A DNA stretch of 64,000 nucleotides from assembly GCF_055900595.2 (NCBI RefSeq), contig NZ_CM148325.1. One strand, written 5' to 3'. The position numbers were made by a program. This document shows positions 3,001-7,203 of this stretch, one piece after another. The first letter of the stretch is position 1. Each line of letters opens with the position of its first letter.

Positions 3001-6000
3001 TCGAATCACACGATGTAGGAACGCGCCTGTATGGTTATCTCAACTCATTCCAGGTTGTACTCGAAGCGCTGTGCATGGCCATTATTCCTTTCTTTGTTAA
3101 TCGGGTAGGGCCAAAAAATGCATTACTTATCGGTGTTGTGATTATGGCGTTGCGTATTCTTTCCTGCGCACTGTTCGTTAATCCCTGGATTATTTCATTA
3201 GTGAAGCTGTTACATGCCATTGAGGTTCCACTGTGTGTCATTTCCGTCTTCAAATACAGCGTGGCAAACTTTGATAAGCGCCTGTCGTCGACGATCTTTC
3301 TGATTGGTTTTCAAATTGCCAGTTCGTTGGGGATTGTGTTGCTTTCAACGCCGACTGGAATACTTTTTGACCATGCAGGTTACCAGACGGTTTTCTTCGT
3401 AATTTCGGGTATTGTCTGCCTGATGTTGTTATTTGGCATTTTCTTCCTGAGTAAAAAACGTGAGCAAATGGTGATGGAAACGCCTGTACCTTCTGCAATA
3501 TAGACGTAAACTCTTTCCGGTTGTTGTCGATAGCTCTATATCCCTCAACCGGAAAATAATAATACCCAAATGCTTAGCGCGGCTAATAATCGCCTAATCC
3601 AAACGCCTCATTCATGTTCTGGAACAGTCGCTCAAATGTACTCATGATACGCGGTTCGCTGATTTCCAGGAAATTGTCGTAATTCAGCGACCTGTCCCGT
3701 GTATCACGGGCCTGCTAATCCATCAAGGAATGCATTGCGGAGTGAAGTATCGAGTCAAGCCAGATTTCGCGATCAGGATTCTGTGTGATGATTACATTGC
3801 CAGGCCCGGGGCTGTTTAGTCATCGCCGCACAGTGCTGAGATTTCAACCTGTTGCAGGGAAAATGAGTAGATTTAGGGCAAGTGTGCTGCCAAACCCAAC
3901 TTTTACGCGGGGAAGGTAGATTTCGTTGGAAGGATAAATGGTGTCCCCTGCAGACATCTACTTGAGGCGGCAGGGGATTGATTGGAATGGTGTTTTTTAG
4001 ATGTGAGAAATATTTTACCCGCTATTTTACCCATTGGCGCGGCTTAAGAGCTTATTTTTGAATTCACAATGGTCACGATATAACCATCTTGCTCGCCCGT
4101 GGATAACTTTGGCTTTTGGTAGGTCGCCGGACTTAATCCGGTCATAGATGAAGGTTTTACCGAAGCCAGTATCGGCCATGATGAATTTCAAATCAACCAG
4201 TGAATCAGGTTGTAGTTCGTGTTGCATGAGTGCTATCTCCGAATAGGGAATCGAACCTGCAAATCAGGCAATAAAAAACCGCATTGATGCGGCAATGGTA
4301 GGTCTGGATATCTTGAGAAATGAACGGGCCTCATCGAGTGTGAGGCTGTGGTTAGTCCTTGCGTAACTCGCTAATTCTTCTGTAAGTCTCTGGTGCTTTG
4401 TTTCCGTGTATCTTCATTTCAGACTTCAACAGAGCAACGAGAGAATCCCATTCGTTGAGGATGCCTTTGAATGCCGGAACGCGCTTTGCAACCTTGTCGA
4501 ATGAATCCCTGATTTCTGGAATCTGCTCGACAAGCGCAACGCATCGTCGGAAATCGGCTGCGTCATGTGGAGCACCGAAGCTATGACCATAGATATTCTT
4601 TTTCAGTCCACATGCGATTGAGGCAAGAGTTGCGCTACTGATGCCAACATCGCCAGTCGATTGCCATTTCAAAACCTTCATAGCCAAATCTGACATTTCT
4701 TGTCTCCAATAAAAAAACCGCCATCAGGCGGCTTGGTGTTCTTTCAGTTCTTCAATTCGAATATTGGTTATGTCTGCATGTGCTATCTGCGCCCATATTA
4801 TCCAGTGGTCATAGCAGTCGTTGATGTTCTCTGCTTCGATAACCCTGTTGAATGGCTCTCCATTCCATTCTCCTGTGACTCGGAAGTGCATTTATCATCT
4901 CCATAAAACAAAACTCGCCGTAGCGAGTTCAGATAAAAGAAATCCCCGCGAGGGCGGGGATGTTAAGTCGGTGGGGGTACAGTATGGATATCGAAAATTA
5001 TTGCGCGATTCTCATTACTCCCCTGGGAAAACATTATCTGGCAAGCATACGTTGTTGATGCTGTTTCACAACACGTAAACGTAAGCTGTCATAGGCCCAA
5101 TTGTAGAACATGGTATATGGTAGAAAGAAAAGGAAGAATCCTATCTCTAGTGTAAAAGCCTGTAACAGACTGACGCTCAGAATCCAGGACACCATAATGA
5201 CGCCGATCGCGATAAATCCACTTTCAAAGCCCAAAGCATGGAATGCACGAACTTTTGCAGTTCGTTTTACCTGATGAGCAGGCCAGTAGCGATCAAATAG
5301 CATGTTATAGATGATATTCCAGATCATTGCAGTTGAAGCCAACAAGATAGTCATCCCGCCCATTTCGAGTATAGTTCGCTGCATTAACCATGCTGTGGTG
5401 GGGGCCAGAATCGCAGTGGCAATTCCTTCAAAGCAAATAGCGTGAAAAATACGCTCAAGTAACGATCTGTGTTGAATCGCATTATGTTGCATAACTTACC
5501 TTTCTTACAGTTTCGACCGCGTTATGGAGTTGTGAGATTTTTATCGATTTATGTGATATATAAAAGATAGATACCATCGAAAAAATTGATAGATTATGCG
5601 TTACTCACTTGAAGCGTTAAGTACATTTGTTGAAGCGGTTTCCTGTGGCTCCTTTTCTGCTGCGGCACGAAGATTACGCAAAAGTCAGTCCGCAGTCAGT
5701 ACGTCAATTGCCAATCTTGAGGTCGATCTTGGTATATCATTATTCGATCGCTCTTCGCGAGAACCTGTGCTGACAGAGGAAGGAAAGAAAGTATTGAGTT
5801 ACGTTCATGCGATTTTGTCAGCCAGTGAACGTCTTGAGGAGGTGGCGGTTTCGCTTGCCGGAGAGACTGAAGCTCGTCTGACGTTTGTGCTTTCCGATAC
5901 CCTACACCCTGACTTATTAGAAGACATCATGGTGCAGTTTGATAGTCAGTTTCCACATACTGAGTTAGAGGTTTTAATTGGTGAGGATGTCGATGTCATC

Positions 6001-7203
6001 GATCTTTTGCAAAAAGAACGAGCGCAGATCGGCTTAATTGAGTCTCGGGAACACTACCCCACCGATATTGGCTCAACCCGTTTACCGATGCAAGCGTGGA
6101 TGGGCATTTATGTTTCGGCGTCACATCCACTGTCTGCAGAAAAAACAATCCAGCGGGAACAACTTCATTCATGGCGAGAACTTCGTCTTAATACTTATAT
6201 CGATAACCGGGAGATGATTGCCCGTGGACCGGTTTGGTCTGCACCTAACTATTTGTTGTTACTCAGTATGGCCGTACAGGGATTTGGCTGGTGCTCTCTG
6301 CCCTGTGCTCTGGTTGAGGAGTTTGCAACAGAAAAACCGCTGGTTCAGCTCGACGTACCTGGCTGGCCAAAGGCAATTTCTATCGATCTGCTTTGGAATA
6401 AAAAATCGCCACCAGGCGCGGCTGGAAATTGGCTTAAGCATCATTTACAGCATATCAATGCCCCAAATAGTCGAACTTAGATTAGTTAAAATATGGAATC
6501 CTGAAATAATCTATGTTGATATGTGGAGCCATCTTCCAGGCTCCCACCTAAATCATGTTAGCAGTTCCATTTTTTTGATGATTTCCGCATGAGCATCATC
6601 GTTATCCCCAGCGACAAATTGAATACAAAACCAGTGCTACCGCCATTGCAATTCCTACCGTTGCGAATGCTTCAGGCCAGCTCATTGATTCACCTCCTGC
6701 GGCGGTTCTGGTAGTGGTATCCAGAACAAGGCGTTCCCTAACCACGATAAAGTGCCGTCGCTCAACTCCACGTATTCCCCTTGCACCTGTCCTGCCATAT
6801 ACTCACCGTGCTTTGAATAAATTAAAATCCAATCATCTTGAGCGGGCATTCGCTCACTACAGCTTATCCAACCACCCGGAGTTACCGGAGAGTTGCCGCG
6901 TTCTTTAATGTGCAAGCGAGGCTCACCATCTTTTGGTTCAGGCCACTGGCGCTCCATGTTGATCTTCAATTTATCTTCCTGTAGTGGCACACTGAATTTG
7001 GCCACCTGAACAGAGGTGATATGCTCACCTCAGAACAACACAGGTGCTCCAATGAAAAAAAGAAATTTCAGCGCAGAGTTTAAACGCGAATCCGCTCAAC
7101 TGGTTGTTGACCAGAACTACACGGTGGCAGATGCCGCCAAAGCTATGGATATCGGCCTTTCCACAATGACAAGATGGGTCAAACAACTGCGTGATGAGCG
7201 TCA

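What the first reader, a model, noticed from the sequence alone, without database searches (positions are those of the whole stretch)
5034..6480. PACE-family efflux protein with divergent LysR regulator on the island
The 152-aa membrane protein shows the duplicated BTP-repeat signature of PACE/AceI-type transporters and is divergently paired with a LysR regulator, the arrangement known for AceI/AceR. Its presence on a mobile island suggests horizontally spread biocide or polyamine efflux.
Basis: partly seen in the sequence, partly recalled or inferred. Interest (0 to 1): 0.45.

Follow-up and report, generated by a model that had tools for sequence, protein, structure and literature searches.

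The report
Prophage-borne PACE efflux pump with regulator
The finding is correct but ordinary: a small, already-annotated PACE-family efflux pump gene and its LysR-type regulator, which a few E. coli strains (about 0.2%) carry as passenger cargo of lambda-like prophages.

Summary
ORF 5034-5492 (-) encodes 152 aa with two Pfam BTP domains (E 2e-22 and 2e-21). It passes NCBIfam's curated cut-off for 'multidrug/biocide efflux PACE transporter' (205.6 bits against 165) and carries all four published PACE motifs, including Glu22. It is not an AceI orthologue (93 bits against 180).

ORF 5596-6480 (+) is a full-length LysR-type regulator. Its best family and best solved relative is AceR, but at family level only (127 bits against 500).

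The 'island' is a 42-kb argW island bounded by a 16-bp repeat. The gene pair lies in a 3-kb relic of a lambda-like prophage at one end of it. The same roughly 1.6-kb cassette occurs in 13 of 5,426 complete E. coli genomes. It always sits in one variable cargo slot of lambdoid prophages, at three chromosomal sites (thrW, argW, beside torS). Chromosomal orthologues in Salmonella, Klebsiella and Citrobacter-like contigs lie between yqeG- and yqeF-like genes (Enterobacter: LysR next to yqeF, record cut at the PACE side); K-12 lacks the pair there.

RefSeq already names both genes. The literature already reports rare phage/transposase-flanked E. coli PACE genes and tested one, with at most 2-fold MIC effects. 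Verdict: already known, low interest.

The parts
3938..3953 (.). 16-nt att core repeat (ATGGTGTCCCCTGCAG). It marks the distal end of the argW island, next to the csc sucrose genes.
   Evidence: An exact repeat of 46002-46017 at the 3' end of tRNA-Arg.
4027..4227 (-). Prophage excisionase, annotated TorI in RefSeq relatives.
   Evidence: for the ORF. RefSeq calls it 'response regulator inhibitor TorI' (WP_001163428.1). It matches phrog_66, integration and excision.
4352..4696 (-). 114-aa phage protein of unknown function; part of the prophage backbone.
   Evidence: phrog_1229, E 1.9e-51. It sits next to xis/torI in all carrier prophages.
4724..4891 (-). 55-aa phage protein of unknown function. 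It is the backbone gene on the left side of the cargo slot.
   Evidence: phrog_676, E 2.1e-38. It also flanks the empty slot in CUPF12.
4901..4961 (-). Two intrinsic-terminator-like hairpins with T tails, 73-133 bp downstream of the PACE stop codon, in backbone DNA.
   Evidence: stems at 4961-4942 and 4930-4911 on the - strand.
4966..6556 (.). Cassette-specific DNA of about 1.6 kb: 68 bp, the PACE gene, a 103-bp control region, the LysR gene, and about 76 bp.
   Evidence: Breakpoints against the empty-slot prophage L010 are at 4965/4966 and 6688/6689. Window 6557-6700 also occurs in many other phage-like elements that lack the pair. The right-hand limit is therefore approximate.
5034..5492 (-). 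PACE-family transporter (152 aa, two BTP domains, four hydrophobic segments).
   Evidence: Motifs found: RIFHAICFE 14-22, WNIIYNMLFD 58-67, RAFHALGFE 82-90, YTMFYNWAYD 126-135. The protein is identical to the PACE protein encoded at the loci where RefSeq lists WP_103253410.1 (translated comparison).
5493..5595 (.). Divergent control region (30% G+C). The conserved block 5540-5595 holds an LTTR-type ATC-N9-GAT box (5543-5557) and GATA boxes at 5555, 5566 and 5588, spaced in multiples of 11 bp.
   Evidence: Alignment A1 with Salmonella, Enterobacter and Klebsiella orthologous intergenic regions. Repeats. G+C.
5596..6480 (+). AceR-like LysR-type transcriptional regulator (294 aa).
   Evidence: The best NCBIfam model is AceR. 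The best solved relative is 8j4n (E 1.4e-31 over residues 4-285), which itself scores as AceR (550 bits).
6602..6685 (-). Unannotated 27-aa hydrophobic ORF (MSWPEAFATVGIAMAVALVLYSICRWG). Its ATG overlaps the stop codon of the upstream gene (ATGA). It belongs to the phage backbone, not the cassette.
   Evidence: The DNA is shared with other phage-like elements.
6689..6979 (-). 3' fragment of the phage dATP/dGTP pyrophosphohydrolase/DUF551 gene (the right side of the slot). It is truncated by an IS3-family element whose end starts near 6980.
   Evidence: homology stops at 6979; 6980-7010 matches the DNA just upstream of the IS3 transposase gene in L001. phrog_60 and phrog_924.
44637..45854 (-). 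Intact tyrosine integrase ORF next to argW. It belongs to the island, not to the phage relic.
   Evidence: NF007246 integrase domain, 289 bits.
46002..46077 (-). tRNA-Arg(CCT) (argW position, by the flanking yfdC/mlaA genes), with the second copy of the 16-nt att core at 46002-46017.

Best explanation
This is a self-contained, inducible efflux module that travels as lysogen cargo (a 'moron') of lambda-like phages.

Shown: the 152-aa protein is a four-helix, tandem-BTP PACE transporter with every family motif intact. The divergent gene encodes an AceR-like LysR-type regulator. The half of the 103-bp control region nearest the regulator gene is conserved across genera and contains an ATC-N9-GAT box plus phased GATA boxes. 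The two genes form a roughly 1.6-kb insert in one variable slot of lambdoid prophages, between the small genes next to xis and the DUF551/ea22 genes. That slot is occupied by this cassette at three chromosomal integration sites. In this window the carrier phage is a 3-kb relic at the end of a 42-kb argW island.

Inferred, by analogy with AceI/AceR: the regulator binds the conserved boxes. On binding a cationic amine (a short-chain diamine such as cadaverine or putrescine, or a cationic biocide) it activates the pump promoter. The pump then expels the cation across the inner membrane using the proton gradient, with the membrane-embedded Glu22 as the coupling residue.

The pump gene points the same way as the phage early-left (PL) operon, so it could also be read through on induction. 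In a lysogen, and in this relic, it must rely on its own promoter. The likely source is the yqeG-PACE-LysR-yqeF chromosomal locus of an unsampled relative in the Escherichia/Citrobacter/Salmonella group.
For: Family: and for the motifs, as defined in PMC6195760.

Regulator.

Operator conservation.

Prophage carriage: the same gene order occurs in 13 of 5,426 complete genomes. The sites are thrW, argW and beside torS, in a near-complete lambda-like prophage running from int to J. Four IMG/VR viral contigs also carry it. The neighbouring genes are phage families.

Variable slot: an empty site exists, and other prophages hold ASCH, DUF4752, DUF4222 or eaa genes there.

Integrity: across the 10 loci compared, the pump differs only by H8R and the regulator only by A14V and S48T. 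The exact protein was seen on 486 contigs, and the most widespread other member of its cluster (identity to the H8R allele not checked) on 977.

Chromosomal origin: the pair lies between yqeG- and yqeF-like genes in Salmonella, Klebsiella and three Citrobacter-like or Salmonella-like contigs, and in Enterobacter the LysR gene abuts yqeF (record cut at the PACE side). In K-12, yqeF and yqeG are adjacent with no pair between them.

AceI/AceR paradigm: PMC5961012, PMC4406071 and PMC8458285.
Against: There are no expression, binding or transport data for this allele.

The tested E. coli homologue (ECTW07793_0407, probably but not verifiably this protein) gave at most 2-fold MIC shifts. The Salmonella orthologue STY3166 gave none. 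Biocide resistance may therefore be marginal.

The consensus promoter scan found no more sites than shuffled sequence (4 against 2.9 +/- 1.7), and none is convincingly placed for either gene.

Diamine transport has been shown only for Acinetobacter AceI, which is a different PACE subgroup (93 bits against the 180 cut-off).

The donor lineage is unresolved (NJ bootstraps of 54% and 69%).
Confidence: 0.76

Rival explanations
1. The pair is a silent hitch-hiker. It was captured by a phage and is now decaying, with no function in E. coli.
For: It is rare (0.24% of complete genomes). In this window the carrier is a dead relic. Measured phenotypes of homologues are weak or absent.
Against: Both ORFs are full length, with at most one pump substitution and two regulator substitutions across all loci compared. 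All family motifs are intact. The control region keeps the boxes conserved in chromosomal orthologues. The pair persists at three integration sites, in E. albertii, and on well over a thousand contigs.
Confidence: 0.1
2. The module is functional, but its real substrate and signal are neither biocides nor short-chain diamines. It could export another metabolite, and the regulator could also control host or phage genes elsewhere.
For: It belongs to a different PACE subgroup from AceI. Substrate ranges differ widely among PACE proteins. In all seven chromosomal or plasmid-record orthologue loci examined, an acetyl-CoA acetyltransferase (yqeF-like) gene flanks the pair, and in the six whose record extends past the PACE gene an amino-acid permease (yqeG-like) gene lies on the other side. 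That hints at a metabolic role.
Against: All characterised PACE substrates are cationic amines or biocides (PMC6195760, PMC8458285). The phage took only the two genes and not the metabolic neighbours.
Confidence: 0.12
3. It is a true AceI/AceR orthologue pair, that is, a chlorhexidine-specific system transferred from Acinetobacter-like bacteria.
For: The architecture is the same. AceR is the best-scoring regulator model and the best solved relative.
Against: The AceI equivalog model scores 93 bits against a cut-off of 180, and the AceR model 127 bits against 500. The nearest relatives are enterobacterial chromosomal genes at 80-83% amino-acid identity.
Confidence: 0.02

Closest known systems
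AceI/AceR of Acinetobacter baumannii (the prototype PACE pump and its LysR activator)
   Same: Tandem BTP pump of about 150 aa with a conserved glutamate in the first transmembrane helix. A divergently transcribed LysR-type regulator with operator sites in a short shared intergenic region. AceR is the regulator's closest characterised and solved relative (PMC5961012).
   Different: It is not orthologous, since both proteins fall below the equivalog cut-offs. AceI is a core chromosomal gene, whereas this pair is prophage cargo. The AceR operator sequences quoted in PMC5961012 do not visibly resemble the ATC-N9-GAT and GATA boxes seen here; I made no formal comparison.
Chromosomal enterobacterial PACE-LysR pair at the yqeG/yqeF locus (Salmonella STY3166 / STM14_3648, Klebsiella KPK_0842, Enterobacter Entcl_2273)
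   Same: Same NCBIfam subgroup name in RefSeq, same divergent layout, an intergenic region of about 100 bp and the same conserved operator block. Amino-acid identity is 62-83% for the pump and 70-77% for the regulator.
   Different: Those copies are vertically inherited, flanked by a thiolase gene and (where the record extends that far) a permease gene. The E. coli copy has lost that context and sits in a phage. It is about as far from Salmonella (43% and 41.5% third-position identity for the pump and regulator genes) as E. coli's own yqeF and yqeG are (47% and 43%). The locus-tag names come from the literature; I did not check their sequences.
ECTW07793_0407 (EII93401), the E. coli TW07793 PACE protein tested by Hassan et al. 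2015
   Same: An accessory E. coli PACE protein, described as flanked by transposase and phage sequences and as having its key glutamate at position 22, as here (PMC5840245; PMC4337561).
   Different: I could not confirm sequence identity, because no sequence is held in the papers or their supplements. Four rare E. coli PACE clusters were reported in 2015 (PMC4406071).
Lambdoid prophage morons and the KplE1/CPS-53 prophage at argW
   Same: A foreign, self-regulated gene unit inserted between conserved phage genes, followed by terminator-like hairpins. At argW, the torI excisionase lies at one end and a 16-nt att core bounds the element.
   Different: The cargo is an efflux pump with its own regulator. 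PHROGs v4 has no family that matches the pump, and no genuine phage genome among 50,697 records carries it.

Membership tests
PACE (proteobacterial antimicrobial compound efflux) family | [quoted passage not shown] | tested here: met
   Residues 9-71 (E 2.2e-22) and 77-140 (E 2.1e-21); 152 aa.
PACE (proteobacterial antimicrobial compound efflux) family | Curated NCBIfam cut-offs for PACE transporter models | tested here: met
   NF033665: 205.6 bits against 165. NF033664: 169.8 bits against 80.
PACE (proteobacterial antimicrobial compound efflux) family | Motifs 1A (RxxhaxxfE), 2A (WNxx[y/f]NxxFd), 1B (RxxHaxxFe) and 2B (Ytxx[f/y]nwxyD), including the glutamate in helix 1 and the aspartate in helix 4 (PMC6195760) | tested here: met
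   RIFHAICFE 14-22, WNIIYNMLFD 58-67, RAFHALGFE 82-90 and YTMFYNWAYD 126-135.
PACE (proteobacterial antimicrobial compound efflux) family | Four transmembrane helices | tested here: met
   Kyte-Doolittle 19-residue windows above 1.4 merge into four segments, about 11-37, 47-66, 83-105 and 108-130. This is a hydropathy estimate only, not a topology experiment.
PACE (proteobacterial antimicrobial compound efflux) family | Proton-driven efflux of cationic biocides or diamines | not testable with these tools
   Only literature on homologues is available.
AceI equivalog (chlorhexidine efflux protein of Acinetobacter) | Score at or above the curated cut-off of NF033663 | tested here: not met
   93 bits against a cut-off of 180.
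AceR equivalog | Score at or above the curated cut-off of NF052373 | tested here: not met
   126.9 bits against 500. It is nevertheless the best-scoring model, and alignment to 8j4n (AceR, 550 bits) covers the full length.
LysR-type transcriptional regulators | N-terminal HTH_1 domain plus C-terminal LysR substrate-binding domain, about 300 aa | tested here: met
   PF00126 at residues 5-64 and PF03466 at residues 89-285.
LysR-type transcriptional regulators | Divergent target gene with a T-N11-A type box in the shared intergenic region | tested here: met
   ATC-N9-GAT at 5543-5557, conserved in 3 of 4 genera (ATG-N9-GAT in Klebsiella). Binding itself was not tested.
Prophage moron (lysogen cargo in a lambdoid phage) | A discrete insert between conserved phage genes that is absent from otherwise collinear phages | tested here: met
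   An empty site with 35 bp in its place. Alternative cargo occupies the same slot in other prophages.
Prophage moron (lysogen cargo in a lambdoid phage) | Own promoter and terminator, and expression in the lysogen | tested here: inconclusive
   Its own regulator and conserved control region are present, and two terminator-like hairpins lie downstream. The promoter scan did not exceed shuffled controls, and there are no expression data.

The most novel reading that the evidence does not exclude
[quoted passage not shown] The evidence here supports one specific route. A temperate lambda-like phage captured exactly the pump-regulator pair from the yqeG/yqeF chromosomal locus of an unsampled relative. 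It now shuttles the pair, as a self-regulated unit, between at least three integration sites in Escherichia. On this reading the pair restores to lysogens an inducible cation or diamine export function that the E. coli lineage lost.
Probability: 0.5. Interest if true: 0.3.

Novelty: already known. Interest (0 to 1): 0.15.

Why it matters
It matters little beyond book-keeping. PACE pumps are a recognised biocide and diamine efflux family. RefSeq already names this gene. The rarity of PACE genes in E. coli and their association with phage and transposase sequences are already published. The modest addition here is a precise account of the vehicle: one cargo slot of lambdoid prophages, three attachment sites, and an empty-site comparator. 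There is also the likely chromosomal source locus. This gives a concrete and testable route for phage-mediated spread of a low-level biocide or polyamine tolerance module.

Tried and rejected
1. I tried to confirm that the published, tested protein ECTW07793_0407/EII93401 is this sequence. The supplements of PMC6195760 and PMC4337561 hold no sequence, and the exact-sequence look-up returned no accession for the queried entry. This remains unverified.

2. I looked for a solved PACE structure by sequence and found none.

3. The phage genome collection gave no genuine phage carrying the pair. The two hits were a mislabelled 691-kb Salmonella contig and a 2.4-kb fragment at 72% identity.

4. The plasmid hits are not evidence of plasmid spread. 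Two records are evidently chromosome-scale (Salmonella 728 kb and Klebsiella 5.37 Mb, each labelled 'plasmid'), the other Klebsiella records (692 kb, 568 kb) were not examined, and the Enterobacter records carry the chromosomal neighbourhood.

5. I tested the idea that the phage copy is the lost ancestral Escherichia allele. Its divergence from Salmonella and Klebsiella fits that idea, but it is closer than expected to a Citrobacter-like contig (79% against 77% for the flanking genes). The NJ trees are unresolved, with bootstraps of 54% and 69%. The idea is neither supported nor excluded.

6. The consensus promoter search did not exceed shuffled controls. My manual -35/-10 candidates had poor spacing, so I do not claim them.

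7. The PNAS 2019 diamine paper (PMC6731653) is not held. I cite it only through papers that cite it.
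Full report
**Observation.** ORF 5034-5492 lies on the - strand (152 aa) and ORF 5596-6480 on the + strand (294 aa). They are divergent and share a 103-bp intergenic region with 30% G+C.

The small protein contains two tandem Pfam BTP domains (PF05232; E 2.2e-22 and 2.1e-21). It passes two curated NCBIfam cut-offs. NF033665, 'multidrug/biocide efflux PACE transporter', scores 205.6 bits against a cut-off of 165. NF033664 scores 169.8 bits against 80.

All four motifs that the PACE literature defines (PMC6195760) are present without a mismatch: RIFHAICFE (14-22), WNIIYNMLFD (58-67), RAFHALGFE (82-90) and YTMFYNWAYD (126-135). Hydropathy gives four hydrophobic segments.

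The larger protein is a complete LysR-type regulator with HTH_1 and LysR_substrate domains.

**What it is not.** The pump scores only 93 bits on the AceI equivalog model (cut-off 180). The regulator scores 127 bits on the AceR model (cut-off 500). AceR is still the best-scoring regulator model. The best solved relative, 8j4n (E 1.4e-31 over residues 4-285), itself scores as AceR at 550 bits. The pair therefore works like AceI/AceR in architecture but is not orthologous to it.

**Relatives and ancestral locus.** Outside Escherichia, the nearest proteins are chromosomal PACE proteins of Salmonella enterica and Citrobacter, at 80-83% identity.
- In Salmonella, Klebsiella and three Citrobacter-like or Salmonella-like contigs, the pair sits in one conserved neighbourhood. 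An amino-acid permease gene (yqeG-like) lies next to the pump, and an acetyl-CoA acetyltransferase gene (yqeF-like) lies next to the regulator, followed by the kdu genes. In the Enterobacter record yqeF again follows the regulator, but the record ends just beyond the pump gene.
- In E. coli K-12, yqeF and yqeG are adjacent with nothing between them. This agrees with the published view that E. coli lost its PACE gene (PMC4406071).
- The half of the intergenic region nearest the regulator is conserved across these genera. It contains an ATC-N9-GAT box (5543-5557) and GATA boxes at 5555, 5566 and 5588, spaced in multiples of 11 bp. That is the layout expected for a LysR-type operator. AceR binds two sites upstream of the aceI promoter (PMC5961012).

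**The vehicle.** The window is E. coli chromosome at the tRNA-Arg(CCT) gene, the argW position by its flanking genes.
- A 16-nt repeat, ATGGTGTCCCCTGCAG, at 3938-3953 and 46002-46017 bounds a 42-kb island.
- The island is composite. Next to the tRNA lie an intact integrase gene (44637-45854) and an IS-rich island that other strains carry without the pump.
- At the far end, next to the csc sucrose genes, lies a 3-kb prophage relic. Its order is torI excisionase, two small phage genes (phrog_1229 and phrog_676), the pump, the regulator, and a fragment of a DUF551/dATP-dGTP pyrophosphohydrolase gene. That fragment is cut by an IS3 element near 6980.

**Distribution of the pair.** The pair occurs in 13 of 5,426 complete E. 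coli genomes, always with the same phage neighbours, at three locations.
- Next to tRNA-Thr at the thrW position. Three further genomes share the same integrase protein, checked in one of them.
- At argW.
- Beside torS in strain VCSW7. There the carrier is a near-complete lambda-like prophage running from int, xis, exo, bet, gam, cIII, N, cI, cro, O, P and Q through to the tail gene J.

Four IMG/VR viral contigs also carry it.

**The slot.** A collinear prophage with an empty slot (strain CUPF12) fixes the breakpoints at 4965/4966 and 6688/6689, with 35 bp in place of the insert. Window 6557-6700 is also shared with other phage-like elements. The cassette proper is therefore about 4966-6556. 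Other prophages hold ASCH, DUF4752, DUF4222 or eaa genes in this slot.

The pump gene points the same way as the early-left operon, and the regulator points against it. Two terminator-like hairpins follow the pump gene. This is the anatomy of a phage moron. No PHROG family matches the pump, and no genuine phage genome in the 50,697-record collection carries it.

**Integrity.** Across the 10 loci compared, the pump differs only by H8R and the regulator only by A14V and S48T. The exact protein was seen on 486 contigs and the most widespread other cluster member on 977, including E. albertii.

**Origin.** The cassette is 79-80% identical in DNA to its closest chromosomal relative, a Citrobacter-like contig. 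It is 72% identical to the Salmonella pair. Third-codon-position identity to Salmonella is 43% for the pump gene and 41.5% for the regulator gene. E. coli's own yqeG and yqeF score 43% and 47% against Salmonella. NJ trees of cassette and flanking genes each place the E. coli sequence on a long separate branch, with weak support for any sister group (54% and 69%). The donor is therefore an unsampled member of the Escherichia/Citrobacter/Salmonella group. I could neither support nor exclude the idea that it is the lost Escherichia allele.

**Mechanism.** The steps below are inferred, not shown.
- The regulator occupies the conserved boxes.
- A cationic amine effector switches it to activate the pump promoter.
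- The pump exports the cation in exchange for protons through Glu22.

The basis is the AceI/AceR work: the regulator is required for induction, binds two sites, and binds chlorhexidine (PMC5961012). AceI is induced by, and transports, cadaverine and putrescine (as reported in PMC8458285). The Salmonella orthologue is listed as a putative cadaverine/putrescine pump (PMC9972920).

The expected resistance effect is small. In the published panel an E. coli PACE protein (ECTW07793_0407) raised chlorhexidine to 0.39-0.78 against 0.195-0.39 ug/ml for the vector. It raised acriflavine to 6.25 against 3.125 ug/ml. Salmonella STY3166 gave no increase (PMC4337561).

**Comparison with what is known.**
- RefSeq's PGAP already annotates the two genes as 'multidrug/biocide efflux PACE transporter' and 'LysR family transcriptional regulator' in every carrier genome.
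- Hassan and colleagues reported four rare PACE clusters in E. coli, each in 0.2% of strains or fewer (PMC4406071, PMC6195760). That matches the 0.24% found here.
- A review notes that the homologue in strains TW07793 and KTE84 is flanked by transposase and phage sequences and has its key glutamate at position 22, as here (PMC5840245). I could not retrieve that sequence to prove identity.
- The only increment from this work is the exact vehicle and slot. [quoted passage not shown]

**Verdict.** The feature is already known and of low interest.

Noticed in passing
L021 10436-22682 (NZ_CP082357.1, E. coli VCSW7, record 2846435-2858681): In the lambda-like prophage that carries the cassette, the major capsid gene is split in two by an element of about 11 kb. 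The element has its own integrase, a primase, an Icd-like gene, and its own major capsid and head-decoration genes. It looks like a phage satellite integrated into the helper phage's capsid gene.
   Followed up: no
window 6602-6685 (- strand): An unannotated 27-aa hydrophobic ORF (MSWPEAFATVGIAMAVALVLYSICRWG). Its ATG overlaps the stop codon of the DUF551 gene (ATGA), and GGAGG lies upstream. The DNA is shared with many phage-like elements, including plasmids of about 95-111 kb.
   Followed up: partly
window 31577-41903 (+ strand): A gene cluster inside the argW island: a TerB-N-terminal-domain protein (769 aa), an ATP-binding protein (438 aa), a DEAD/DEAH helicase (732 aa), a 338-aa hypothetical protein and an HsdR-N-terminal-domain protein (786 aa). 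It may be an anti-phage defence cluster. I did not analyse it.
   Followed up: no
window 18238-23073: Strain CRE1540 annotates a single 3.5-kb autotransporter gene here. In the window it appears as two ORFs (692 and 488 aa) separated by a 402-aa ORF. This suggests that an insertion interrupts the gene.
   Followed up: no
L023 (NZ_CP126871.1) and NZ_CP114989.1, Enterobacter hormaechei 'plasmids' of 59 and 51 kb: The 59-kb record (L023), annotated as a plasmid, carries the PACE-LysR pair together with its chromosomal neighbours (yqeF-like thiolase, kdgM porin, oligogalacturonate lyase, kduI); the 51-kb record matches the pair but its neighbours were not looked at. Either a chromosomal segment has moved to a plasmid, or the assemblies are wrong.
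   Followed up: no
one search hits P0011, P0015, P0016, P0021 (Salmonella enterica): Several Salmonella PACE orthologues (160-aa gene models) are named 'Na(+)-translocating NADH-quinone reductase subunit E' in NCBI records. This appears to be an annotation error.
   Followed up: no
OR845460.1 'Escherichia phage ECO95 1-6-1' (2,455 bp; hit H42): A tiny record deposited as a phage matches the LysR gene at 72% identity over 689 bp. At that identity it resembles the chromosomal orthologues rather than the E. coli cassette, which makes it an odd 'phage' record.
   Followed up: no
window 1-3503 and 3938-3953: The csc sucrose-utilisation genes (cscA, cscK, cscB) abut the att repeat of the argW island. 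Strain Rb-50 carries the same prophage end directly next to dsdC, without the csc genes.
   Followed up: partly
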